Source: Candidatus Planktophila sp. (GTDB taxonomy: Bacteria; Actinomycetota; Actinomycetes; Nanopelagicales; Nanopelagicaceae). From it: a stretch of 64,000 nt of DNA. Location: contig JBIILI010000003.1 in NCBI GenBank assembly GCA_044232745.1, positions 92,259 through 156,258 on the forward strand, read 5' to 3'. A program made the position numbers and the translations under genes. The notes under the pieces are model-generated. The model was not told where the DNA came from and searched no databases. It saw only the letters and a program-made list of their open reading frames with translations. Each line of letters begins with the position of its first letter. The stretch's first letter is position 1. Positions 26,487 to 36,308 of this stretch are shown here, in pieces.

Positions 26487-27296
26487 TTAGTTGGTCTTTA
26501 CCTCAAGCTGGATGGCTAAATGGTCACTCATACCCGCGTGCTCATGAAGCGAAGTTTGTACATCACCACTAGTTAACGTTTGCGACAAGAAATAATCAAT
26601 TTGTACCTTTGGTTGCCAACTTGGAAAAGTCTTTCCACTTGCTAATGAGTTCCACTTCAATCCTGTTACAAGTTTTAGAAAAGGAATATTGAAATCCCCC
26701 ATCAGCACAATCTTACTTTTGTCGGATACACCCAATCTGTTTCCCCAACGCTTAATTTTTATCAACTGATAGAAATTAAAAAATGGTACAAAAGAAAGAT
26801 GAGTATTAATGATTAACCAACCATTGTCTAAATGTGCGGCCAGTGCACTGCGTGGATGATCACGAACATAAAAACGTTTCATTTTCCCGTCGACTGGAAA
26901 CACCATGAATACTCCAACTGGCGAACCCTTTAGATCTAAACGGTGCCACTGAGTAACAGGAATTGTTGAAACCATCCCAATTCCATATGCTGGTGAAGAT
27001 TCCGGATCTTTGTTGGTAACAATTTTGGCATCATCAGAACCTGGCTTATGCCAATCATCTTCTGGCGAACCCATGAGTGAAGGCGCAAACGCCCAATCTG
27101 TTGCATTCATCATCGTTGCAATATTGCCAACCTGATTGTGATTGTTAGAACGTCCCAAGAAATAATCGACTTCCTGCAATCCAATAATGTCGCTCTTTAG
27201 CTCCTTGATCTCTGCCTGCAGCAGTGCTTCCGCATCAACTGTGGCATCAGGGGGCATGGCCATTCCGTGCAGTAAATTCCATGAGGTTACGCGCAT
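26487..27296 (-). CDS. Endonuclease/exonuclease/phosphatase family protein
   Basis: TSWN, GLQEVD, NTHL, MGDFN, IDY, SDH. Confidence 0.9.
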   Translation of the reverse strand: MRVTSWNLLHGMAMPPDATVDAEALLQAEIKELKSDIIGLQEVDYFLGRSNNHNQVGNIATMMNATDWAFAPSLMGSPEDDWHKPGSDDAKIVTNKDPESSPAYGIGMVSTIPVTQWHRLDLKGSPVGVFMVFPVDGKMKRFYVRDHPRSALAAHLDNGWLIINTHLSFVPFFNFYQLIKIKRWGNRLGVSDKSKIVLMGDFNIPFLKLVTGLKWNSLASGKTFPSWQPKVQIDYFLSQTLTSGDVQTSLHEHAGMSDHLAIQLEVKTN

Positions 27297-27323
27297 TGGC
27301 CAAGGCTAGTAGCGTTCACCCCT

Positions 27324-28307
27324 ATGAGCGCGCAGACACCTGATTCCAACACGGCCTCGCTCTCGCCCATTAATCGCGAAAGCGAATTGAGAGCCGATGC
27401 CGCAGAGCTAGCCGCACTGTGGAAATCAGCACAGATTATTCATTTGGTAGATGCACGCTTAAGTGCCGGGGGTGATTCACTAACTTTTATTGATGCCGCT
27501 GCAGTTACCGCAGCCCAAGAAATTTTTGTTGCTGGCGATCGCTTCTTCTTGGGAATCGGTCGTGATGACAATCAGGCTTACTTTGCGTGGCACACAACCT
27601 GGATTAATCCACCTGAAGATGATGGAACCGAAGAGTTTGAGAAGCGTAAGTACGAAGGATTCAAATCGTTGCGCGAACTCGGCGGTCAATTAGATGCTGA
27701 TGAGTTAGCACTTGCCATGCACGCAGTTGGTTTAGCTAACTGGCATGCAACTCATACACATTGCGCCAGGTGTGGAGCGCCGACTGTTAGCGATCTAGGT
27801 GGCAGTGTTCGAGTGTGTCCTCAAGACGCAACACAACATCACCCACGCACCGACCCGGCTGTCATCGTTTTAGTAAAAGATAAAGATGATCGCATCCTGT
27901 TGGGGCATCAACCAACCTGGCCTGATAAACGTTTTTCTACTTTTGCTGGTTTTGTCGAAACAGGTGAATCATTTGAAGAGTGTGTATCGCGCGAAGTATT
28001 CGAAGAAGCTGGTGTTTATGCAGCTGACATCAATTACTTAACTTCACAGGCTTGGCCATTTCCGGCATCGATCATGATTGCATTCGAAGCAATTACGCAT
28101 CGCCCAGAAGAAGCTCGCCCTGATGGCACTGAAATTACTGAAGTACGCTGGTTTTCACGTGATGACATGAAAGCCGCTGTTGCAGCACAAGATCTTTTAT
28201 TGCCGCCAAAAATTTCAGTTGCACGTCGCATGATTGAGTCTTGGTACACGCGGGTTGATGGCTATACCCGCGAACAATTGCGTGGTGGTGAATCGTGGAG
28301 GCCGTAG
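27324..28307 (+). CDS. nudC: NAD(H) diphosphatase / NAD-decapping enzyme NudC
   Basis: Zn ribbon CARCG...CP, HHPRTDPAVI, AGFVETGESFEECVSREVFEE, SQAWPFP. Confidence 0.95.
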   Translation: MSAQTPDSNTASLSPINRESELRADAAELAALWKSAQIIHLVDARLSAGGDSLTFIDAAAVTAAQEIFVAGDRFFLGIGRDDNQAYFAWHTTWINPPEDDGTEEFEKRKYEGFKSLRELGGQLDADELALAMHAVGLANWHATHTHCARCGAPTVSDLGGSVRVCPQDATQHHPRTDPAVIVLVKDKDDRILLGHQPTWPDKRFSTFAGFVETGESFEECVSREVFEEAGVYAADINYLTSQAWPFPASIMIAFEAITHRPEEARPDGTEITEVRWFSRDDMKAAVAAQDLLLPPKISVARRMIESWYTRVDGYTREQLRGGESWRP

Positions 28308-29974
28308 GAAACCTACGCGCAGAAGAGATTCTTGAGGCGCTAGATAACGAACAACGCGCTGTCGCACTTGCTACACGCGGACCTGTTTGCGTCATTGCTG
28401 GTGCCGGAACAGGTAAGACCCGGGCAATCACACACCGAATTGCATATGCCGCAGCTATTGGCACCATGGATCCGCACAAAGTTTTAGCTCTTACCTTTAC
28501 CGCGCGCGCAGCTGGCGAAATGCGCACACGATTGCGTTCGCTAGGTGTTCCGGCAGTTGCTGCCCGCACCATCCATGCCGCAGCTCTAAAGCAATTGACC
28601 TTCTTTTGGCCACAGGTATTTGGTGGCCGCACGCCTGATTTACTGACTACCAAGTCCGGATTTTTAACAGAAGCGATAAAGCGTGCTCAATTACAAGGCG
28701 AGCTATCAATTACATCCCGTGATTTACTGCGCGATATCGCAACAGAGATTGAATGGGCCAAGGTTTCACAAGTTGCCCCATCTGATTACTTAAGCGAATC
28801 GCTTAAGCGCACAGTTAAGCCTCGGATTAATCCCGAACAACTAGCCAAGGTTTACACAGCCTATGAAAGTGTGAAGCACCAAGAGCGCGCAATTGATTTT
28901 GAAGATGTCCTACTGCTGACAACTGCAATGATTGAAGAAGAGCGCGAAGTTCGTGAACGCGTGCAGGATCAATACCGATTCTTTACAGTTGATGAGTATC
29001 AGGATATTTCCCCGCTGCAGCAACGATTAATCAATGCCTGGTTGGGTTCTCGTCAGGAATTATGCGTTGTGGGAGACCCTGCGCAAACTATTTACTCATT
29101 TGCTGGGGCAACACCGGTGTTCCTCAATTCATTTACCCAACGTTTCCCAGAAGCCGAAGTTGTGCGCCTAACAACTGGATACCGATCAACCCCCGAAATC
29201 ATCTTCACCGCCAACAGCATTTTGCGAAAAGGTGCAATGGGTAACGAACTAGTTGCAATCAATGATCATGGCAGCAAGCCAACGATTACGGCTTATAGTG
29301 ATGAAGCTGCAGAAATTGCCGGAATCGTTCGAGCAATCACTCAGTTGATCTCTGAAGGAACACCTGCTCAAGAGATTGCAGTTCTAGCCCGCACTAACAA
29401 CCAATTAAATGGTTTAGAAAAAGCGATGAACACAGCCAACTTGCCATACCAAGTTCGCAATACTGAACGCTTTTTTGAACGCAAGGAAGTCCGTGATTTC
29501 TTGAAGCAGGTTCGTACCGCATCTGTTATTCCAACCGAAGGTGTGTCATGGCTTGATGAACTGCGCACTCTTGCTCAACCATTTTTAACTGGGGGAGCGA
29601 TCGATGGAATCGCAGCGTTGTTACACCTTGCACGCGAACTAGATGGTGACAGCGGATTTACTCCTAAGAATCTGCGCGCGTACCTGCGCGAAGTCGAAGA
29701 TCGTGTTCAGCAAAATAATCCACCAACCATGCCTGTGACAACTCTTGCAACGTTGCATGCAGCAAAAGGTTTGGAATGGGAAAGAGTATTTTTAATTGGC
29801 GTTAGCGATGGAATCTTGCCTCTTGAAAACAACAGTACGACAGGTGATCAAGCATCAATTGATGAAGAACGAAGATTGTTTTATGTTGGAATCACCCGCG
29901 CTAAATCAGATCTGCGCCTTAGCTATCGAGGCAAACCATCACGATTCTTGGCTGAAGCGGGCTTGTCTAACTAG
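28295..29974 (+). CDS. uvrD2: UvrD2-type ATP-dependent DNA helicase (no C-terminal HRDC domain)
   Basis: AGAGTGKT, TFTARAA, VDEYQD, VGDPAQTIYSFAGA, TLHAAKGLEW, EERRLFYVGITRA; located between nudC and whiB7. Confidence 0.9.
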   Translation: MEAVGNLRAEEILEALDNEQRAVALATRGPVCVIAGAGTGKTRAITHRIAYAAAIGTMDPHKVLALTFTARAAGEMRTRLRSLGVPAVAARTIHAAALKQLTFFWPQVFGGRTPDLLTTKSGFLTEAIKRAQLQGELSITSRDLLRDIATEIEWAKVSQVAPSDYLSESLKRTVKPRINPEQLAKVYTAYESVKHQERAIDFEDVLLLTTAMIEEEREVRERVQDQYRFFTVDEYQDISPLQQRLINAWLGSRQELCVVGDPAQTIYSFAGATPVFLNSFTQRFPEAEVVRLTTGYRSTPEIIFTANSILRKGAMGNELVAINDHGSKPTITAYSDEAAEIAGIVRAITQLISEGTPAQEIAVLARTNNQLNGLEKAMNTANLPYQVRNTERFFERKEVRDFLKQVRTASVIPTEGVSWLDELRTLAQPFLTGGAIDGIAALLHLARELDGDSGFTPKNLRAYLREVEDRVQQNNPPTMPVTTLATLHAAKGLEWERVFLIGVSDGILPLENNSTTGDQASIDEERRLFYVGITRAKSDLRLSYRGKPSRFLAEAGLSN

Positions 29975-30019
29975 CTCTATGCCTTCATAAAGACCCTATG
30001 TACGCTCATTTATGCGGGG

Positions 30020-30060
30020 AATTAATTACCTTGCCAGTACCTCAACCCATGGTTTATCCT
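30020..30060 (+). promoter_or_regulatory. whiB7 leader promoter with AT-rich WhiB7-type site
   Basis: AATTAATTA (30020-28), then TTGCCA (30031-36), 18 nt spacer, TATCCT (30055-60). Confidence 0.75.
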
Positions 30061-30109
30061 TATGACTTCATTCCCATGGCGGGAGTAAACATGATGGAAG
30101 GGAACGAAT

Positions 30110-30268
30110 ATGTCTAACGCATCATTCGTATCAGCAAACGCATTGCGTTCTGCTGTGATTCCTTCTGCTCATACGACCAATAAGCCTTCTACTTGGCATG
30201 CTTCAAAGCCAGCGTTTTACGCAGCTTTTTATGCCGGATACGAGGCCAATGGTGGTTCAATCGAATAA
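30110..30268 (+). CDS. whiB7 upstream leader peptide (uORF), 52 aa (not in ORF track)
   Basis: Hand translation MSNASFVSANALRSAVIPSAHTTNKPSTWHASKPAFYAAFYAGYEANGGSIE; purine-rich RBS GGAAGGG upstream. Confidence 0.8.
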   Translation: MSNASFVSANALRSAVIPSAHTTNKPSTWHASKPAFYAAFYAGYEANGGSIE

Positions 30269-30290
30269 TTCGATTTAGAACTAAAAGCCA

Positions 30291-30331
30291 AGGGCCTCGA
30301 ATCCACAAGGATTCGGAGCCCTTTTTGTTTT
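30291..30331 (+). terminator. whiB7 attenuator terminator
   Basis: AGGGC-C-TCGAATCC-ACAA-GGATTCGG-A-GCCCT followed by TTTTGTTTT. Confidence 0.88.
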
Positions 30332-30413
30332 ATATAAACAAACTTCACTCCAGAAAACCAACGACAACCAAAAGAGACCGAAGCAATACCTAACAGAAAG
30401 AAGAGGTGAGAAC

Positions 30414-30812
30414 ATGAGCGTTCTCTTCAGTGAACTACTAGTACCAGGCTGGGCAGATGAAAAGATCGGTTTGGATGCCGTAACAGGCACATACACAGAC
30501 GGGTCATCATTTAATTTGCCATGCCACACAGCAGATCCTGAGCTCTACTTTTCTGAGGATGAGATGCAGGTGCGAGAGGCCAAGTCACTCTGTGGCGGAT
30601 GTCCCGTGCGTGCTCAGTGCTTAGAAGGTGCGTTATCGCGCCAAGAGCCAGCAGGTGTGTGGGGTGGAGAATTATTTGAAGAAGGTCGCATCATTGCAAA
30701 GAAGCGCAAAGCTGGACGACCAACTTTGAAAGAGATCGCTGCACGCAATGCAGAAGGCGAACTCATTGAACTCAACGTTAAGGGCGACGAGCGCGAGGAG
30801 AGTGCTGCTTAA
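30414..30812 (+). CDS. whiB7: WhiB7/WblC transcription factor
   Basis: Four Cys (C...C-GG-C...C), GVWGG turn, AT-hook-like KKRKAGRP; lies downstream of uvrD2 as in mycobacteria. Confidence 0.92.
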   Translation: MSVLFSELLVPGWADEKIGLDAVTGTYTDGSSFNLPCHTADPELYFSEDEMQVREAKSLCGGCPVRAQCLEGALSRQEPAGVWGGELFEEGRIIAKKRKAGRPTLKEIAARNAEGELIELNVKGDEREESAA

Positions 30813-30841
30813 CGAGAGAGTTTTGAGTTAATCTCACTCCC

Positions 30842-31225
30842 ATGAAGCAAGATCCTGCAAAGGCCCGCGCACTAGTGGCATCCCTACTCTTTGTTGAGGC
30901 AGGCGTTGTATTTGCCCTCGCAGCATGGCTGTTGGTGCTCACAGTTACTTCAGGTTCCTTCGAATTACTTCCACTTTTAGGAGTCCTGCTTTTCGCTCTC
31001 CTAGGTGGAGGCGGACTTCTTACCTGTGGTCTCTTCTATAAGAGTGGCGCTTACTATGGGCGCGCTCCTGCAGTATTAGCTAACTTAATTGCATTGGGCG
31101 TAGTTTCTTATCAAGTAGAAGCTCACCTATGGTTTGTTGCAATTCCATTGGCTGCTTTAGCTGGAACAACTTTAATTGCGGTGTTGCGCGCCATTCCAAC
31201 TGATTCGACTGGCACAACTATTTAA
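30842..31225 (+). CDS. Four-TM membrane protein of unknown function
   Basis: Four hydrophobic helices, GRAPAVLANLI motif. Confidence 0.75.
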   Translation: MKQDPAKARALVASLLFVEAGVVFALAAWLLVLTVTSGSFELLPLLGVLLFALLGGGGLLTCGLFYKSGAYYGRAPAVLANLIALGVVSYQVEAHLWFVAIPLAALAGTTLIAVLRAIPTDSTGTTI

Positions 31226-31233
31226 AAAAAGAT

Positions 31234-31953
31234 TTACCACTCGACGATCTGATTGTCTTCCCACAAAACTCCTGTTGTATCTCCAGCATTAAATTCTCTA
31301 GTGGCCAACCACAACGCACACGCAGCACCTTCCTCGGCACTTCGTGGTGCATCGGCACCACCCATGTCGGTGCGTGAATGATTCGGACACACTGCATCAA
31401 CCAAGACACCGCGTGCACCTAATCCTGTTTCATGTGCAAGGTTTCGAACTAGTGCATTAACTCCAGCTTTACTGATTCGGTATGGAGCAAGGCCACCTGC
31501 ATTGCCAGGTCCTGACATTCTTCCTAAGCAAGCAGAGTAAATAATGACGCGACCACTTCGAGCTTCAACCATTGTGGGTGCTAAGCCATTAACAAGTGTG
31601 AATACAGAATCTAAATTGATCGCCATGACTCGACGCCATTCAGCATCAGTCGTTTTCAAAGTCTTTGACATTTTGTCGCTCATCACACCGTGGGCCAGAA
31701 TTAGTAGGTCAGGTGCAGCATGCTGTTGCGAAATCATCGCAACTACGTTGCGAGTTGCTTGCATGTCCTCAAGATCAACTGAATATGTGGTGAACTGTTG
31801 ATTCGGGTGATTTAGTTGTAATGATTCCTGAGTCTGCGATAGGCGGCCCGAATCCTTGGCAATCATCACGATGTCATAGCCCAGCGCAGCTAGAGACTTG
31901 GCGTTTTCAAAACCCAGACCTCTGCTTGCGCCGGTGACCACTGCTAAAACCAT
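31234..31953 (-). CDS. Short-chain dehydrogenase/reductase
   Basis: VTGASRGLG, YRISK (YxxxK), VCP..SRTDMGG; ATG 31953 lies 6 nt after CAGGCT. Confidence 0.9.
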   Translation of the reverse strand: MVLAVVTGASRGLGFENAKSLAALGYDIVMIAKDSGRLSQTQESLQLNHPNQQFTTYSVDLEDMQATRNVVAMISQQHAAPDLLILAHGVMSDKMSKTLKTTDAEWRRVMAINLDSVFTLVNGLAPTMVEARSGRVIIYSACLGRMSGPGNAGGLAPYRISKAGVNALVRNLAHETGLGARGVLVDAVCPNHSRTDMGGADAPRSAEEGAACALWLATREFNAGDTTGVLWEDNQIVEW

Positions 31954-32091
31954 TGGCAAAGCCTGCCTCAGATATCTGGAAAATGGAGCCTGAAATTAAT
32001 GTGGCCAATCTCGCCTTATGAGCGCCAATCCATGTTTATCAGGGCCAGTCACTGCCGATAGGCTTAGACCTGTAATCAATGCAGAAGGAGC

Positions 32092-35000
32092 TTGCCAGTG
32101 TCGGCACAGGATTTTGGCGCAAATGATTGGCTCGTTGATGAAATGTACGAGCAGTATTTAGCGAATCCTTCTTCCGTAGACCCAGCATGGATTGAGTATT
32201 TCAAAACCAATAAACCCGGAGCACCAGCAACTTCAGCAAGTACTGGTTCAACATCGGTTGCACCAAGTAAAGGTGTTCCACCCGTTCCAAAGGCACAACA
32301 AAAAGCGGCACAACCTGCACCTGTTGTTGCGCCAACACCTGCACCAGTAGTTGCCGCACCTGTTGTGGCTGCAGCACCTGTTGCACCAACACCTCAGCAA
32401 CCAGTGCTTCGCGAGACTGCAGCAATACAACCAACACCGGCAGATCCAATTGTTAAGCCTGTTCCAGTTTTGATTACGCCATCAGCATCTTCACTTGAAC
32501 CAATTCGCGGAGTTTCAGCTCGCGTAGTTCAAGCAATGGAAGGATCGCTAACAGTTCCGACAGCAACATCTGTTCGCGCAATTCCTGCCAAGTTAATGAT
32601 TGATAATCGCATCGTGATTAACAATCACTTGAAGCGCAGTCGTGGTGGAAAAGTTTCCTTTACTCACATCATCGCTTTTGCAATGATCAAGGCAGTTCGT
32701 GCAATGCCAGAGATGAATGCCTTCTTTGGTGACATAGATGGCAAGCCCGCAATTGGAAAGCCAGAACACATCAACTTAGGCGTTGCCATCGATTTAGCTA
32801 AGGAAGATGGATCACGTCAATTATTGGTTCCATCAATTAAGGGTTGCGAAGAATTAGATTTTGGACAGTTCTGGAACGCCTACGAAGCTGTAATTAAAAA
32901 GGCTCGTGGTGGATCTTTAACTGTTGAAGATTTTGCAGGCACGACGATGTCCATTACTAATCCAGGAACTATCGGAACAGTTCACTCTGTTCCACGTTTA
33001 GTTCAAGGCCAAGGCCTGATTCTTGGCGTTGGAGCGATGGATTATCCAGCTGAATTCCAGGGCGCAAGTGAGCAAACCCTTATTGAGATGGCTGTTAGCA
33101 AGGTAATTACTCTTACAAGCACGTATGACCACCGCATTATTCAGGGCGCACAATCTGGTGATTTCTTGCGCCGCATGCACGAATACTTGCTAGGTGCAGA
33201 AGGTTTCTACGATGACATCTTTAGTGCACTTCGTATTCCTTACGAACCAATTCGTTGGGCAACTGATTTTGCTTTCTCTCGCGATGAAGAAATCAGCAAG
33301 ACGGCTCGAGTTCAACAGTTAATTCAGTCATACCGAACATTCGGTCACTTGATGGCTGATGTTGATCCCCTTGAATACGTTCAGCGTTCACACCCTGATC
33401 TAGATGTTGTTACACATGGTTTAACGCTCTGGGATCTTGATCGCGAATTTGCTACTGGCGGTTTTGGTGGTGAACGCTTCATGACCCTTCGCAAGATTCT
33501 TGGAATATTGCGCGATGCGTATTGCCGTTCAGTTGGCGTTGAATATATGTACATCCAAAATCGCGAAGAGCGCGAGTGGATTCAGAATCGTGTTGAAGTT
33601 GGGTATGCCAAATTACCTCGCGATGAACAACTACACGTTTTACGTAAGCTCAACAGTGCTGAATCTTTTGAGTCGTTCCTGCACACAAAGTTTGTTGGAC
33701 AAAAGCGATTCTCGCTAGAAGGCGGAGAATCAGTTATTCCACTACTTGATGCTGTTATTTCCGCAGCCGCAGATGATGGACTTGATGAAGTCTGTATTGG
33801 CATGCCGCACCGTGGTCGACTGAATATTCTTGCAAATGTTGCTGGCAAATCTGCAGGTCAAATCTTTCAAGAGTTCCAGGGTCACTACACAGAAAATCAG
33901 GTCCAAGGATCTGGCGATGTGAAGTATCACTTGGGAACCTCAGGGGTCTTTACATCCAATAGCGGTGCAACTACAAATGTTTATCTTGCGGCAAACCCAT
34001 CTCACCTAGAGGCTGTAAACCCAGTACTAGAGGGCATTGTTCGCGCAAAGCAAGACCGCATGAATGTGAAGAACGCTTACTCCGTAATGCCAATTCTTTT
34101 GCATGGAGATGCCTCATTTGCAGGCCAAGGTGTTAACGCTGAAGTTCTGCAGCTAGCTGGCCTTCCTGGGTACCGCACCGGTGGAACAATTCACATTGTT
34201 ATTAACAATCAAGTTGGATTTACAACATCCCCAATTTCCTCACGTACTTCTGTGTACTCAACTGACTTTGCAAAGATCACTCAAGCACCGGTGTTCCATG
34301 TAAATGGCGATGATCCAGAAGCATGTGTTCGCGTTGCTCGTTTGGCATTTGAATATCGTCAAGAATTTAACAAGGATGTTGTTGTCGACATGGTTTGTTA
34401 CCGTCGTCGTGGACACAACGAAGGTGACGAGCCAAGTTTCACTCAACCATTGATGTACAAGATGATTGATGCAAAGCGCTCAACTCGTAATTTGTATACC
34501 GAAGCACTTGTTGGCCGTGGAGATTTAACTCCTGAACAAGTAGATGAAATTGCTCGTGATTACCAAGAACAGCTTGAATCAATTTTCGCATCAGTTAACA
34601 ACATCGAACCAGAACATGATGAAAACTTTAAGGTTCCAGTTGCGCCAGAACCAGAGGCAATTAGCACGGCGATCTCGGAAAATCTTGCACAAGAAATTGC
34701 TGCAACGCAGTTAGCGGTTCCAGAAGGATTTAGCGTTCATCCTAAGTTAACTCCGCAACTTGCAAAGCGCGTCGAGTCGCTTAACGATGGAACGATCGAC
34801 TGGTCAACAGGTGAAATGCTTGCATTCGGTTCACTTCTTAAAGAAGGCCACCCAATTCGACTTGCTGGACAAGATGCTCGACGTGGAACTTTCTCAAACC
34901 GTCATGCTGTAATCATTGATAAAGAAAATGGCAATGAGTGGACACCGCTTCGTGGACTTATTGGCGACGAAAATCAATTCTTTGTAATTGATTCTTTGCT

Positions 35001-35823
35001 CAGCGAATACGCTGCCATGGGCTTTGAATATGGCTACAGCCTAGAACGTGAAGAAGCATTGGTTCTTTGGGAAGGCCAGTTTGGCGATTTCGCCAATGGC
35101 GCGCAAACAATTATTGATGAGTTTGTTTCCTCTGCACTGCAAAAGTGGGGCGAGCGTTCTTCCGTTGTACTTCTTCTTCCACATGGTTACGAAGGACAAG
35201 GGCCAGATCATTCCTCAGCACGCATCGAGCGTTACCTGCAGCTATGCGCTGAACAAAACATGACCGTTGCGCAGCCTGCAAGCCCAGCAAATTACTTCCA
35301 CTTGCTGCGTTGGCATGCAAAGAACCCTGCACGTCGTCCGCTGGTTGTTTTCACACCTAAATCAATGCTTCGCCTAAAGGCAGCGGCTTCAAAACTAACT
35401 GACTTCACAACTGGTTACTTCCAAGAAGTTATCGGTGATGACTCAGTTCAAAACGCTTCTCGCGTTATTTTCTGTTCAGGAAAGATTTATCACGATCTAG
35501 TCGCAGAACGCGCAAAGCTTGGCGAAACCGGAACTGCAATTATGCGAGTTGAACTTTTGTATCCACTGCCTGTTGATGAAATGGTTGCAGAGGCTAACAA
35601 GCATCCAAATGCAAACTTGTTGTGGGTTCAAGATGAACCTGCAAACCAAGGTCCGTGGTCACATATTGCATTACGTACATCTGAGGCACACGGTGGACAT
35701 GGCTTTGGAAATCGCACATTGCGTCGCATTTCTCGTCGCGCAACGGCGTCTCCTGCAACTGGAAGTCATCACTTGCATGAAGATGAGCAAAAAGCATTAT
35801 TGCTCGAAGCCTTCACTCGCTAA
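32092..35823 (+). CDS. kgd: Multifunctional 2-oxoglutarate decarboxylase/dehydrogenase E1 with fused E2 domain (Kgd/OdhA)
   Basis: FGANDWLVDEMY, Pro/Ala linker, acyltransferase TYDHRIIQG, GMPHRGRLN, HGDASFAGQG, LLPHGYEGQGPDHSS. Confidence 0.96.
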   Translation: MPVSAQDFGANDWLVDEMYEQYLANPSSVDPAWIEYFKTNKPGAPATSASTGSTSVAPSKGVPPVPKAQQKAAQPAPVVAPTPAPVVAAPVVAAAPVAPTPQQPVLRETAAIQPTPADPIVKPVPVLITPSASSLEPIRGVSARVVQAMEGSLTVPTATSVRAIPAKLMIDNRIVINNHLKRSRGGKVSFTHIIAFAMIKAVRAMPEMNAFFGDIDGKPAIGKPEHINLGVAIDLAKEDGSRQLLVPSIKGCEELDFGQFWNAYEAVIKKARGGSLTVEDFAGTTMSITNPGTIGTVHSVPRLVQGQGLILGVGAMDYPAEFQGASEQTLIEMAVSKVITLTSTYDHRIIQGAQSGDFLRRMHEYLLGAEGFYDDIFSALRIPYEPIRWATDFAFSRDEEISKTARVQQLIQSYRTFGHLMADVDPLEYVQRSHPDLDVVTHGLTLWDLDREFATGGFGGERFMTLRKILGILRDAYCRSVGVEYMYIQNREEREWIQNRVEVGYAKLPRDEQLHVLRKLNSAESFESFLHTKFVGQKRFSLEGGESVIPLLDAVISAAADDGLDEVCIGMPHRGRLNILANVAGKSAGQIFQEFQGHYTENQVQGSGDVKYHLGTSGVFTSNSGATTNVYLAANPSHLEAVNPVLEGIVRAKQDRMNVKNAYSVMPILLHGDASFAGQGVNAEVLQLAGLPGYRTGGTIHIVINNQVGFTTSPISSRTSVYSTDFAKITQAPVFHVNGDDPEACVRVARLAFEYRQEFNKDVVVDMVCYRRRGHNEGDEPSFTQPLMYKMIDAKRSTRNLYTEALVGRGDLTPEQVDEIARDYQEQLESIFASVNNIEPEHDENFKVPVAPEPEAISTAISENLAQEIAATQLAVPEGFSVHPKLTPQLAKRVESLNDGTIDWSTGEMLAFGSLLKEGHPIRLAGQDARRGTFSNRHAVIIDKENGNEWTPLRGLIGDENQFFVIDSLLSEYAAMGFEYGYSLEREEALVLWEGQFGDFANGAQTIIDEFVSSALQKWGERSSVVLLLPHGYEGQGPDHSSARIERYLQLCAEQNMTVAQPASPANYFHLLRWHAKNPARRPLVVFTPKSMLRLKAAASKLTDFTTGYFQEVIGDDSVQNASRVIFCSGKIYHDLVAERAKLGETGTAIMRVELLYPLPVDEMVAEANKHPNANLLWVQDEPANQGPWSHIALRTSEAHGGHGFGNRTLRRISRRATASPATGSHHLHEDEQKALLLEAFTR

Positions 35824-35843
35824 TTTGGATTATGGTTTAACTC

Positions 35844-36308
35844 ATGAAGTCCCGCCGCTACCTAGTTTTATTCCCGATACTCCTAGTTCTTCTCGCGATT
35901 ACTGTTCGAGTTGCTAGTAGTGATCAGGCTTGGGTGGCTCTCACCCCAATGCCAATTGAAATGAAAGTTCCGACAGACATCGCTGAGCGAATTACAGTTC
36001 AAGATCAGTCAGTTGATGCAGCAAAGAGTGGTGCTGTTTCTGTTGTGACTCTTTCTTATCAGCCGATTGAAGGCGAGAAGGCTTGGTTTATGACTGCTTA
36101 TTACTTTATTGAAACAGATCTTGATAAAACTATTTTTCCTGATGAGGTGCCACCGTATGGCCTTAAGTTAATTACTAGAGATGGTATGGCTTTAAGTGTT
36201 ATCGGACCACAGGAATCAATCTATGAACCAAATAGTCACGATGGAAAGAACTTCGGGAAGTTGTATGACATTTTGTATGACAAAAATTCTTATCGATTCA
36301 AAGACTAA
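35844..36308 (+). CDS. Hypothetical exported protein
   Basis: Basic N-terminus plus hydrophobic signal or anchor; no family recognised. Confidence 0.65.
   Translation: MKSRRYLVLFPILLVLLAITVRVASSDQAWVALTPMPIEMKVPTDIAERITVQDQSVDAAKSGAVSVVTLSYQPIEGEKAWFMTAYYFIETDLDKTIFPDEVPPYGLKLITRDGMALSVIGPQESIYEPNSHDGKNFGKLYDILYDKNSYRFKD

What the first reader, a model, noticed from the sequence alone, without database searches (positions are those of the whole stretch)
30020..30812. Complete whiB7 translation-stress attenuator (uORF, antiterminator, terminator, WhiB7-type promoter) in a streamlined freshwater actinobacterium
Seen in sequence: an AT-rich run ends just before -35 TTGCCA; a 52-codon uORF spans 30110-30268; a terminator spans 30291-30331. 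The mutually exclusive antiterminator pairs GGAT-A-CGAGGCC-AA-TGGT (30236-53, last uORF codons) with GCCA-AG-GGCCTCG-A-ATCC (30287-304, the terminator 5' arm). Established: mycobacterial whiB7 and Streptomyces wblC use uORF-coupled attenuation and an AT-hook-bound promoter to induce intrinsic resistance to ribosome-targeting antibiotics. Inference: a ribosome that reaches the stop masks the antiterminator and transcription terminates; a stalled ribosome allows read-through. Keeping this circuit in a minimal oligotroph suggests it senses amino-acid starvation or natural antibiotics. The uORF has an aromatic-rich tail (FYAAFYAGY) just before the antiterminator, a possible stalling sensor.
Basis: partly seen in the sequence, partly recalled or inferred. 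Interest (0 to 1): 0.7.

Follow-up and report, generated by a model that had tools for sequence, protein, structure and literature searches.

The report
whiB7 leader attenuator in freshwater Planktophila
Upstream of the whiB7 stress-regulator gene of an abundant freshwater actinobacterium lies a short translated leader and an on/off RNA switch, the same kind of control known from mycobacteria and Streptomyces. It had not been described for this group, and here the leader peptide carries an unusually conserved aromatic patch.

Summary
There is a 52-codon uORF (30110-30268), a terminator hairpin with U-tract (30290-31), and a competing antiterminator (30236-53 with 30287-304; -33 vs -22 kcal/mol). 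The promoter has an AT-rich run abutting TTGCCA.

The gene is a WhiB7 orthologue: its best solved relative is M. tuberculosis WhiB7, and it keeps the helicase-whiB7 synteny. The genome is Ca. Planktophila.

More than 100 related loci keep the promoter, uORF, stop-codon hairpin and terminator. The uORF 3' end stays complementary to the terminator 5' arm even where its sequence differs. Within Planktophila that helix is invariant, so it shows no column-wise covariation.

New here:
- an anti-antiterminator, giving a trpL-like 1:2/2:3/3:4 layout;
- a covarying 5' hairpin;
- codons 34-42 (PAFYAAFYA) under peptide-level selection, sitting where control codons are expected;
- very high leader and whiB7 signal in lake metatranscriptomes.

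Induction, the 3' end and the TSS remain untested.

Verdict: a well-supported new member of the known whiB7/wblC uORF attenuator class, with lineage-specific variants. Interest is moderate.

The parts
28295..29974 (+). UvrD/PcrA-type helicase gene, the conserved upstream neighbour of whiB7
   Evidence: Pfam UvrD-helicase E 6.9e-55. The NUDIX-UvrD-whiB7 order is kept in distant relatives.
30020..30028 (+). AT-rich run AATTAATTA, 2 bp upstream of the -35; candidate WhiB7 AT-hook site
   Evidence: Nearly invariant TTAAT in 66 leaders. Present next to TTGC in 14 diverse lineages. Only exact motif match in the window. Binding is inferred.
30031..30036 (+). -35 hexamer TTGCCA
   Evidence: Promoter scan. 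TTGC nearly invariant.
30055..30060 (+). -10 hexamer TATCCT (TAnnnT), 18-nt spacer; the TSS is predicted at about 30066-30069
   Evidence: T, A and final T invariant in 66 leaders. Same 18-nt spacing in 14 lineages. In 3 of 4 metatranscriptomes coverage starts at about 30101-30122, but one contig reaches 30014, so the TSS is not fixed.
30070..30086 (+). 5'-terminal hairpin AUUCCC-AUGGC-GGGAGU (up to 9-11 bp in relatives) with conserved (A/U)UGGC loop
   Evidence: Present in 60 distinct sequences with 37 distinct stems. 21-22 double compensatory changes per pair in RNAalifold. Function unknown; a role in 5'-end stability is a guess.
30096..30102 (+). Shine-Dalgarno of the uORF (GGAAGGG)
   Evidence: Sequence. 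A purine-rich AAGG/GGAG is conserved at this place.
30110..30268 (+). uORF / leader peptide, 52 codons: MSNASFVSANALRSAVIPSAHTTNKPSTWHASKPAFYAAFYAGYEANGGSIE
   Evidence: ORF list. Conserved as a 51-52-codon ORF in 66 distinct leaders. Ala 21% vs 10.8% background, P = 0.02. Annotated in databases only as a hypothetical protein.
30184..30200 (+). Segment 1: pairs with 30229-30246 (anti-antiterminator) in untranslated RNA
   Evidence: MFE of the leader. The antiterminator arm is 29-69% sequestered by upstream RNA in 11 lineages. Inferred role.
30209..30235 (+). Codons 34-42, PAFYAAFYA: invariant peptide patch, candidate control codons or nascent-peptide sensor
   Evidence: All 9 third positions vary and none of the 18 first and second positions do (P = 2e-7). 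Synonymous entropy ranges from the whiB7 baseline at codons 34, 35 and 39 to low at codons 41-42. An aromatic-rich tail is seen in 12 group representatives.
30236..30253 (+). Antiterminator 5' arm GGAUACGAGGCCAAUGGU (last uORF codons)
   Evidence: Pairs checked. Synonymous sites nearly frozen in codons 41-49. Forms in all 60 haplotype folds printed, of 83. Complementarity kept with other sequences in other lineages.
30254..30281 (+). Hairpin with the uORF stop codon (30266-68) in its apical loop; caps the antiterminator
   Evidence: MFE. 8 of 11 pairs show double compensatory changes, and the sequence is wholly different in L175/L176.
30287..30304 (+). Shared strand: antiterminator 3' arm and terminator 5' arm (GCCAAGGGCCUCGAAUCC)
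   Evidence: The core GGCCNCGAAUCC is conserved across the order.
30290..30331 (+). Intrinsic terminator: 14-bp hairpin 30290-30323, then U-tract UUUUUGUUUU
   Evidence: Scan. -21.8 kcal/mol. G-C to A-U compensatory change in 9 sequences and A-U to G-C in 2. The covariance model hits once per locus in 79 of 87 sources.
30332..30413 (+). Variable A-rich spacer with the whiB7 SD GAGGUGA (30403-09)
   Evidence: Length and sequence vary between strains. RNA contigs run through it into the ORF.
30414..30812 (+). whiB7 orthologue, 132 aa: Cys37/60/63/69, GVWGG 81-85, KKRKAGRPT AT-hook-like motif, acidic C-terminal tail
   Evidence: Pfam Whib E 1.6e-17. Best PDB match is M. tuberculosis WhiB7, 84 bits, vs 48 or less for other Wbl proteins.

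Best explanation
This is the 5' leader of the whiB7 orthologue of a Ca. Planktophila (Nanopelagicaceae) genome. It works as a ribosome-position-dependent transcription attenuator.

Transcription starts at a promoter whose -35 abuts an AT-rich run. That run is the likely docking site for WhiB7's own AT-hook, which would give positive autoregulation (inferred).

The roughly 347-nt leader encodes a translated 52-codon peptide. Four RNA strands compete:
- strand 1, 30184-30200;
- strand 2, 30229-30253, the last uORF codons;
- strand 3, 30287-30304;
- strand 4, 30309-30323, followed by the U-tract.

Three outcomes follow (all inferred).
1. No ribosome, or a ribosome far behind: 1:2 forms, then 3:4, the terminator, and RNA polymerase stops at about 30326-31.
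2. A ribosome translating at normal speed covers strand 2 and the stop-codon hairpin while strand 3 emerges. 3:4 again forms and transcription ends.
3. A ribosome held at about codons 24-38 covers strand 1 and leaves strand 2 free. Slow translation, antibiotics or uncharged tRNA could cause this. Strand 2 then pairs with strand 3 (-33 kcal/mol, stacked on the stop-codon hairpin), the terminator cannot form, and whiB7 is transcribed.

The invariant Pro-Ala-Phe-Tyr-Ala-Ala-Phe-Tyr-Ala codons lie 1-27 nt upstream of strand 2 (Phe36-Ala39 at 10-21 nt), which resembles the placement of control codons in trpL-type attenuators (from memory). They are the most likely place where stalling is read, so the switch would be tuned to Ala, Phe and Tyr supply as well as to general translation stress.

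Shown: the anatomy, its conservation, and co-transcription of leader and gene. Inferred: termination, its relief by stalling, and autoregulation.
For: Gene identity:
- Whib domain.
- Best solved relative is Mtb WhiB7, E 6.6e-23.
- Helicase-whiB7 synteny holds in all relatives with enough flank.

Anatomy.

Translation of the uORF is supported by strict 3-nt periodicity of variation in codons 34-42.

RNA-level constraint on the antiterminator arm: synonymous entropy about 0-0.1 bits in codons 41-49, against 0.6-1.0 in whiB7.

Structure conservation:
- The same antiterminator and terminator fold in all 60 haplotype folds printed, of 83.
- The terminator and stop-codon hairpin covary: score 0.096 vs 0.043 in shuffles, 0 of 500 shuffles as high.

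Cross-lineage support for the antiterminator:
- Arms GGAUACGAGGCC.., GGAUGAGGCC.., GGAUUCGGCACCUGG and GGCCACUUGG all pair with the terminator 5' arm.
- UUGG:CCAA is replaced by CUGG:CCAG in some lineages.
- The best partner sits at the same place, -56 to -65 from the core (-43 and -47 in two weaker lineages).
- It falls in the tail of the control distribution (fraction 0.05 or less) in 18 of 22 loci tested.

Ribosome-masking models give P(terminator) 0.96 with no ribosome and with the P site at codon 41 or later. They favour the antiterminator (0.6-0.97) for P sites in about codons 23-34 and 38.

The promoter architecture is conserved in 14 divergent lineages.

Lake metatranscriptome contigs cover leader and ORF at depth 170-1170, against about 0 for both flanking genes. 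Single contigs span leader, terminator and ORF. The leader-to-downstream depth ratio runs from about 1.5 to about 10 between samples.

The architecture matches published whiB7/wblC attenuators:
- about 350-nt leader, SD-led uORF and an intrinsic terminator (RIT) at the uORF end (PMC4128351);
- stalling leads to the antiterminator (PMC10274678, PMC11550727);
- Ala-rich uORF, with its last Ala codon inside the antiterminator (bioRxiv 10.1101/2025.10.10.681568).
Against: - There is no direct 3'-end, TSS or induction data. Only assembled contigs of metatranscriptomes were available. Their depth is flat per contig and inflated in the leader by k-mers shared between strains, so the depth drop across the terminator cannot be trusted.
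- In two of four samples depth barely drops past the terminator.
- One RNA contig begins at 30014, upstream of the predicted -35.
- Within the alignment the antiterminator helix is invariant: 0 covarying pairs, no better than shuffles.
- In two lineages (L173/L178 and group C) its complementarity is not above chance, with 0.10-0.19 of control blocks as good.
- The ribosome models are equilibrium approximations.
- The protein has EPA instead of EPW and AGRPT instead of RGRPR.
- One MAG (L012) lacks the terminator 3' arm.
Confidence: 0.8

Rival explanations
1. Same attenuator, but the conserved PAFYAAFYA patch acts as a nascent-peptide arrest or pause element inside the ribosomal tunnel. It could depend on a drug or a metabolite, in the manner of Erm leader peptides or TnaC, rather than working as hungry control codons.
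For: Peptide-level selection on nine consecutive residues. An aromatic-rich stretch 6-25 residues before the stop recurs in all 12 group representatives despite different sequences. Mycobacterial uORFs are reported as variable in sequence (PMC10274678), so strong peptide conservation is unusual for this class.
Against: Selection for amino-acid identity is equally expected for control codons. There is no resemblance to a known arrest motif (recalled from memory, not tested by a search). A ribosome arrested with the patch in the tunnel would sit at codons 44-52 or at the stop, and there it masks the antiterminator arm and would favour termination. The codon-level test is underpowered outside Planktophila.
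Confidence: 0.2
2. The leader is chiefly an independent gene: a 52-aa small protein and/or an abundant terminated small RNA of about 260 nt with its own function. Read-through into whiB7 would be incidental.
For: The leader is very abundant in metatranscriptomes. It has a stabilising-looking 5' hairpin and its own terminator. Part of the peptide is under purifying selection. Gene callers annotate it as a hypothetical protein.
Against: It is always found immediately upstream of whiB7, in the same orientation, in more than 100 genomes. The uORF 3' end is kept complementary to the terminator arm across lineages, which a free-standing gene does not need. The N-terminal half evolves freely at the amino-acid level while its synonymous sites are frozen. 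No conserved promoter lies between the terminator and whiB7. The homologous system is experimentally an attenuator (PMC10274678).
Confidence: 0.07
3. The hairpins control mRNA stability or whiB7 translation rather than transcription termination. The hairpin-plus-U-tract would be a processing or stability element, not a terminator.
For: RNA contigs cross the terminator at similar depth in some samples. A conserved hairpin encloses the whiB7 start codon, and the first 15 whiB7 codons have frozen synonymous sites.
Against: The element is a 14-bp GC-rich stem followed directly by U5GU4, which is a canonical intrinsic terminator. The mutually exclusive antiterminator is conserved. The whiB7 start hairpin shows almost no covariation and is absent in L177. 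It could simply be an additional layer of control.
Confidence: 0.05

Closest known systems
Mycobacterial whiB7 5' leader (uORF, Rho-independent terminator and antiterminator; Burian 2012, Dinan 2014 PMC4128351, Lee/Lee/Roe 2022, Poulton 2024 PMC10274678)
   Same: - Orthologous gene, with the best PDB hit to Mtb WhiB7.
- Helicase gene upstream.
- About 350-nt leader and an SD-led uORF of tens of codons.
- Ala enrichment.
- Terminator right after the uORF stop.
- Antiterminator that includes the last uORF codons.
- AT-rich element abutting the -35.
- The leader is more abundant than the ORF in some RNA samples.
   Different: - No detectable leader homology: a covariance model of the Planktophila element finds nothing significant in 80 Mycobacteriales-type whiB7 loci, and there is no Rfam family.
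- The peptide is 52 aa with an invariant aromatic patch, whereas mycobacterial uORFs are 47-97 aa, very Ala-rich (23-37%) and variable.
- It adds a covarying 5' hairpin and a stop-codon hairpin.
- The protein has EPA rather than EPW, a degenerate AT-hook and an acidic tail.
Streptomyces wblC leader (Lee, Lee & Roe 2022, as summarised in PMC11550727)
   Same: Same logic. uORF translation promotes terminator formation, and antibiotic or starvation stalling promotes the antiterminator.
   Different: It was not compared at sequence level here, because the primary paper is not in the library and no wblC locus was fetched. The Streptomyces hits to the terminator-core pattern are unrelated palindromes with no U-tract and no WhiB7-like gene nearby.
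Classical amino-acid attenuators (E. coli trpL, pheL, hisL)
   Same: Four-strand 1:2 / 2:3 / 3:4 topology. Termination both with no translation and with full translation. Read-through only when the ribosome sits on control codons a short distance upstream of strand 2. The conserved Phe, Tyr and Ala codons occupy that position. The trpL/pheL/hisL geometry itself is recalled from memory.
   Different: It regulates a transcription factor, not a biosynthetic operon. The peptide is longer, with mixed residues rather than a run of a single one. By homology it is expected to respond to general translation inhibition too.
Drug- or metabolite-dependent arrest leader peptides (ErmCL/ErmBL, TnaC)
   Same: A short leader peptide whose amino-acid sequence is itself under selection.
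   Different: Those act on translation initiation of the downstream gene or on Rho access. No shared motif is known to me (memory, not tested). The geometry here argues against arrest at the stop codon as the ON signal.

Membership tests
WhiB7/WblC subfamily of WhiB-like proteins | Four-Cys Fe-S motif C-X(n)-C-X2-C-X5-C and the G[VI]WGG turn | tested here: met
   Cys37, Cys60, Cys63, Cys69 and GVWGG 81-85 in the translation. Pfam Whib E 1.6e-17.
WhiB7/WblC subfamily of WhiB-like proteins | Closer to WhiB7 than to the other Wbl classes | tested here: met
   PDB search: Mtb WhiB7 scores 84.5 bits, against WhiB 48.5, WhiB1 41, WhiB4 30 and WhiB3 27.
WhiB7/WblC subfamily of WhiB-like proteins | C-terminal AT-hook (RGRP core in a basic stretch) | tested here: inconclusive
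   KKRKAGRPTLK aligns with Mtb HKRPRGRPRKD. The GRP core and basic flank are kept, but the first and last Arg of RGRPR are A and T. Relatives have VGRPRL, PGRPRL or AGRPRI. DNA binding was not tested.
WhiB7/WblC subfamily of WhiB-like proteins | EPW triplet before GVWGG, reported as needed for SigA binding (own knowledge of Burian 2013) | tested here: not met
   The window has EPA. Relatives have EPC, EPV or EPI. Only the L298/L307/L338 lineage has EPW.
WhiB7/WblC subfamily of WhiB-like proteins | Synteny with a uvrD2-type helicase upstream on the same strand | tested here: met
   A UvrD helicase gene ends 440 nt upstream. The same order is seen in L173-L178. The comparison with Mtb Rv3198c-Rv3197A is from memory.
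whiB7/wblC uORF-dependent transcription attenuator | Long 5' leader containing an SD-led, translated uORF | tested here: met
   uORF 30110-30268 with its SD. It is conserved as an ORF in 66 leaders, and its codon-periodic variation implies translation. There is no ribosome profiling.
whiB7/wblC uORF-dependent transcription attenuator | Rho-independent terminator between the uORF and whiB7 | tested here: met
   Termination activity itself cannot be tested with these tools.
whiB7/wblC uORF-dependent transcription attenuator | Antiterminator that overlaps the uORF 3' end and excludes the terminator | tested here: met
   Column-wise covariation is nil within Planktophila. Support comes from frozen synonymous sites and from cross-lineage complementarity.
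whiB7/wblC uORF-dependent transcription attenuator | Alanine-enriched uORF | tested here: met
   11 of 52 residues (21%), against 10.8% in long ORFs of the window, P = 0.02. Other lineages have 9-22%, so the enrichment is weaker and less uniform than in mycobacteria (23-37%).
whiB7/wblC uORF-dependent transcription attenuator | Induction by ribosome-targeting antibiotics or amino-acid starvation | not testable with these tools
   Only assembled metatranscriptome contigs were available.
whiB7/wblC uORF-dependent transcription attenuator | Sequence or structure homology of the leader RNA to characterised leaders | tested here: not met
   Model R1 gives no significant hit in 80 Mycobacterium, Rhodococcus, Pseudonocardia and other whiB7 loci. 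No Rfam hit. The relation is analogy of architecture plus orthology of the gene.
WhiB7-activated promoter | AT-rich element immediately upstream of the -35 hexamer | tested here: met
   AATTAATTA-CC-TTGCCA. Conserved in 66 leaders and 14 divergent lineages. WhiB7 binding and autoregulation were not tested.
trpL-type four-strand attenuator | An upstream strand (1) that sequesters the antiterminator strand (2) when the leader is not translated | tested here: inconclusive
   It is present in the window MFE. The arm is 29-69% paired with upstream RNA in 11 lineages. No covariation test was done and the sequences differ widely.

The most novel reading that the evidence does not exclude
In the most abundant freshwater bacterioplankton lineage, the whiB7 switch would be primarily a nutrient sensor rather than an antibiotic sensor. 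The invariant Pro-Ala-Phe-Tyr-Ala-Ala-Phe-Tyr-Ala stretch would read the supply of aromatic amino acids and alanine, or act as a nascent-chain pause element. The aromatic-rich equivalents in other Nanopelagicales would do the same. The switch would sit largely in the ON state in lakes, making WhiB7 a constitutive starvation regulator of streamlined oligotrophs.
Probability: 0.25. Interest if true: 0.6.

Novelty: new member of a known kind. Interest (0 to 1): 0.42.

Why it matters
WhiB7 is studied almost only as the master switch of intrinsic antibiotic resistance in mycobacteria and Streptomyces. Why it persists in lineages far from antibiotic-rich soil is an open question.

The full promoter, uORF, antiterminator and terminator circuit is conserved throughout Nanopelagicales. 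These are tiny genomes that keep few regulators, and the transcript is among the most abundant in the four lake samples examined. This argues that the circuit's core job is sensing translation or amino-acid status.

The conserved aromatic and alanine codons give a concrete, testable handle on which signal is read. Planktophila strains have recently been isolated in numbers (PMC12817590). No paper in the searchable library links whiB7 to this order.

The element also provides a clean covariance model for annotating these leaders, which are currently annotated at most as a 'hypothetical protein' gene.

Tried and rejected
- Rfam at permissive thresholds gave only two sub-threshold hits, both on the minus strand (DUF805b E 0.096, a plant miRNA E 7.7). 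Both were judged to be chance.
- NCBIfam has no model that names the protein.
- I searched the window for further WhiB7-type promoters to define a regulon. One-mismatch matches are at chance level, 8 against 4.75 +/- 2.2.
- The column-wise covariation test of the antiterminator is uninformative, because both arms are invariant. I replaced it with a duplex-energy test against genomic control windows.
- The covariance-model alignment still mis-registers the terminator 3' arm of the window's clade by one base, so '84.7% paired' is an underestimate.
- I tried to read the TSS and termination efficiency from metatranscriptomes. Only Logan contigs exist and there are no raw-read runs. Depth is per contig and inflated by cross-strain k-mers, so neither question is settled.
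- The first ribosome-masking model allowed pairing across the ribosome. I repeated it with downstream-only folding.
- An exact motif scan for AFYAAFYAG found it essentially only in Planktophila-type genomes. The few hits elsewhere were not checked and are assumed to be chance.
- The terminator-core scan also hit Streptomyces, Arthrobacter and Nocardia palindromes. These have no U-tract and no WhiB7-like gene (one Streptomyces hit, L267, has only a chance GIWGG match) and were rejected as unrelated.
- The codon-level selection test in the other peptide groups is underpowered.
- An upstream mini-ORF starting at the AUG in the 5' hairpin loop is not conserved in frame, so I rejected it as a gene.
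- The primary Lee/Lee/Roe 2022 paper is not in the library.
Full report
**What is there**

The window is low-GC (46.5%). The locus matches Ca. Planktophila / Nanopelagicaceae genomes at 94-99% protein identity.

ORF 30414-30812 encodes a 132-aa WhiB-like protein (Pfam Whib E 1.6e-17). Its best solved relative is M. tuberculosis WhiB7 at 84 bits, against 48 bits or less for WhiB, WhiB1, WhiB3, WhiB4 and WhiB6. It has the four Cys, the GVWGG turn, and a basic GRP-containing stretch that aligns with the Mtb AT-hook. It has EPA where Mtb has EPW, AGRPT where Mtb has RGRPR, and an extra acidic tail.

A UvrD-type helicase gene ends at 29974. The order NUDIX, helicase, whiB7 recurs in relatives whose WhiB7 is only 59-68% identical.

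**Check of the observation**

- The 52-codon uORF runs 30110-30268 behind an SD.
- The hairpin 30290-30323 plus UUUUUGUUUU is found by the terminator scan, is part of the MFE of the leader (z = -7.3), and is worth -21.8 kcal/mol.
- The 15 antiterminator pairs between 30236-53 and 30287-304 are all standard pairs. RNA 30236-30304 folds into that helix, capped by a hairpin with the stop codon in its loop, at -33.3 kcal/mol.
- Only 1 of 575 control blocks from the window pairs as well with the terminator 5' arm.
- The promoter reads AATTAATTA-CC-TTGCCA-18 nt-TATCCT.

**Conservation in Planktophila**

66 distinct leaders from related genomes keep the AT-rich/TTGC/TAnnnT promoter, the SD, a 51-52-codon uORF, the stop-codon hairpin and the terminator.

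Two layers of constraint can be separated.
- Codons 34-42 (PAFYAAFYA) are invariant as peptide. All nine third positions vary and none of the 18 first and second positions do (P = 2e-7).
- In those codons synonymous entropy is at the whiB7 baseline for codons 34, 35 and 39, and declines to about 0.1 bits by codons 41-42. This is selection on amino-acid or codon identity, and it implies that the uORF is translated.
- Codons 41-49 and much of the N-terminal half have almost no synonymous change (0-0.1 bits, against 0.6-1.0 in whiB7), even where the amino acid changes. That is RNA-level constraint. Codons 41-49 are the antiterminator 5' arm.

**Conservation across the order**

A covariance model of the stop-codon hairpin plus terminator hits exactly once per locus in 79 of 87 Nanopelagicaceae sources, and only once in the window. 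It finds nothing significant in 80 whiB7 loci of Mycobacterium, Rhodococcus, Pseudonocardia and others. Rfam has no matching family.

On that alignment the terminator and stop-codon hairpin covary: 10 pairs have double changes, and the score is 0.096 against 0.043 in shuffles, with 0 of 500 shuffles as high.

The antiterminator helix is invariant column by column, so it has no covariation signal there.

A scan for the terminator core brought in about 35 more divergent loci, each with a U-tract and a WhiB7-like gene 300-600 nt downstream. Their uORF peptides fall into at least five sequence groups. In every printed group except the L298/L307 lineage, the RNA truncated after the terminator 5' arm folds into an antiterminator made from the last uORF codons. 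In L298 a helix formed by the same strand blocks only the first bases of the terminator stem, but the duplex test still supports the complementarity.

The arm sequences differ:
- GGAUACGAGGCC..,
- GGAUGAGGCC..,
- GGAUUCGGCACCUGG,
- GGCCACUUGG.

UUGG:CCAA is replaced by CUGG:CCAG in some lineages. The best partner of the terminator arm always lies at the same distance. It falls in the tail of the control distribution (fraction 0.05 or less) in 18 of 22 loci tested. Two lineages are weak, with 0.10-0.19 of control blocks as good. The stop-codon hairpin is kept with a completely different sequence in L175/L176.

The promoter architecture, an AT-rich run abutting TTGC, an 18-nt spacer and TAYNCT, is found once upstream of each of 14 divergent leaders.

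1. In untranslated RNA, 30184-30200 pairs with 30229-46 and sequesters the antiterminator arm. The default fold therefore contains the terminator (P = 0.96). Comparable sequestration of 29-69% appears in 11 lineages.
2. A 5'-terminal hairpin (30070-86) with a conserved (A/U)UGGC loop has 37 different stems in 60 sequences.
3. The uORF SD and AUG are themselves paired in the MFE.

**How it most likely works**

I masked a ribosome footprint at each codon. With no ribosome, or with the P site at codon 41 or later including the last sense codon (52), the terminator dominates (0.94-0.96). With the P site at about codons 23-34 and 38, the antiterminator is favoured (0.6-0.97).

This is the trpL-type band-pass logic. 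The invariant Pro, Ala, Phe and Tyr codons lie 1-27 nt upstream of the antiterminator arm (Phe36-Ala39 at 10-21 nt), which is about where control codons sit in trpL as I recall it. These are equilibrium models, so the step is inferred.

By homology with mycobacteria and Streptomyces, stalling would come from ribosome-targeting drugs or from uncharged tRNA, with sensitivity set by the uORF's amino-acid content (PMC10274678, PMC11550727, bioRxiv 10.1101/2025.10.10.681568). The uORF is modestly Ala-rich: 21% against 10.8%, P = 0.02.

**RNA evidence**

Dozens of public freshwater metatranscriptomes hold the leader. In the six runs laid on the region across two calls:
- In the four runs laid on the 9-kb stretch, contigs cover leader and whiB7 at word depth 170-1170. 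The helicase gene and the two downstream genes are at about 0, and the neighbouring 2-oxoglutarate dehydrogenase gene is at 0-150.
- Single contigs run from the leader through the terminator into the ORF, so read-through transcripts exist.
- Leader versus post-terminator contig depth is about 803-954 vs 97 in one run, 150-210 vs 46 in another, and nearly flat in two.

This fits conditional attenuation. But the leader is conserved between strains while the spacer is not, so shared k-mers inflate leader depth and I do not rely on these ratios.

In most of the six runs coverage starts at about 30101-30122, but one contig reaches 30014. The TSS is therefore not fixed.

**Comparison with what is known**

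The architecture matches published whiB7 leaders: a leader of about 350 nt, an SD-led uORF, an intrinsic terminator (RIT) at the uORF end, an antiterminator that includes the last uORF codons, and an AT-rich promoter element (PMC4128351 and the papers above).

Mycobacterial uORFs retrieved here are 47-97 aa, 23-37% Ala, and lack the aromatic patch.

The differences are:
- no detectable leader sequence homology;
- peptide-level conservation;
- the 5' hairpin;
- probably leaderless uORFs in some Nanopelagicales lineages;
- the EPA and AGRPT changes in the protein.

No paper in the library links whiB7 to Nanopelagicales. Papers that mention both WhiB and Planktophila appear, from their titles and abstracts, to be mostly phage and genome surveys rather than studies of this leader. 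The uORF is annotated only as a hypothetical protein.

**Verdict**

This is a new, well-documented member of a known regulatory class, with lineage-specific variants. It is not a new kind of system.

Direct proof of termination, of induction and of the sensed signal needs experiments. Planktophila strains have recently been isolated in numbers (PMC12817590).

Noticed in passing
window 30070-30086 (extended stem 30067-30089): 5'-terminal hairpin of the leader with a conserved (A/U)UGGC pentaloop. There are 37 different stem sequences in 60 distinct leaders, so it covaries strongly. Its function is unknown (5'-end protection, or a factor binding site). In other lineages a hairpin is present but the loop differs.
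   Followed up: partly
window 30096-30131 and about 30160-30167: In the MFE, the uORF's own SD (GGAAGGGA) pairs with an internal UUCCUUCU (codons 17-19), and the AUG sits in an ACGAAUAUG...CAUUCGU hairpin. This may limit re-initiation on the leader. The helix columns are nearly invariant.
   Followed up: partly
window 30408-30458: The first 15 whiB7 codons have almost zero synonymous variation across 63 genomes. A GAGAAC-AUGAGC-GUUCUC hairpin encloses the start codon. There is little covariation, and the hairpin is absent in L177. This stretch also gives the highest cross-strain depth in metatranscriptomes.
   Followed up: partly
L012:361-454: One MAG has the whole leader but lacks the terminator 3' arm and U-tract, either by deletion or by mis-assembly. 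If real, it would be a naturally constitutive variant.
   Followed up: no
L012, L013, L020, L028 (alignment A1 columns 101-139): An insertion of about 35 nt, carrying a palindrome (TTAGATCTTAAAAGATCTAA), lies between the 5' hairpin and the SD in a subset of strains.
   Followed up: no
L175, L272, L306, L321 (promoter to uORF): In these lineages the uORF AUG lies only 7-12 nt after the -10 hexamer, with no SD and no 5' hairpin. The leader peptide is probably translated from a leaderless or near-leaderless mRNA.
   Followed up: partly
L298, L307, L338: This lineage has a canonical EPWGVWGG WhiB7 with a short C-terminus (GRPRTAA*). It shares the same terminator core but has a different uORF peptide (..SYSYATSNPKHFGFSGTLEFIG) and a longer spacer (490-600 nt).
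   Followed up: partly
L197, L198, L211, L254, L257 vs window 30110-30142: Mycobacterial whiB7 uORFs start MINDAFGV / MINANAFGV / MLNFQNFGV, which loosely resembles Planktophila MSNASFVSA. This may be a remnant of common ancestry of the leader peptides, or coincidence.
   Followed up: no
window 27000-36000: In four lake metatranscriptomes, leader plus whiB7 is 100-1000 times deeper than the flanking helicase, membrane-protein and short-chain dehydrogenase genes. It is several-fold or more above the 2-oxoglutarate dehydrogenase E1 gene (32092-35823).
   Followed up: partly
L260, L262, L276, L279 and others (Streptomyces, Arthrobacter, Nocardia): Perfect palindromes GGCCCCGAATCC-loop-GGATTCGGGGCC recur in these genera with no U-tract and no nearby WhiB7-like gene. 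They are an unrelated family of intergenic hairpins picked up by the pattern scan.
   Followed up: partly
window 30881-30918 (- strand): Sub-threshold Rfam match to the DUF805b RNA motif (17.4 bits against a gathering score of 35.6, E 0.096), inside the downstream membrane-protein ORF. Probably chance.
   Followed up: no
window 30842-31225: The gene just downstream of whiB7 encodes a 127-aa hydrophobic protein with no Pfam or NCBIfam match. The neighbour downstream of whiB7 differs between lineages: an ABC1/UbiB-like kinase in L175, and T2SS-F-like genes in L177.
   Followed up: no
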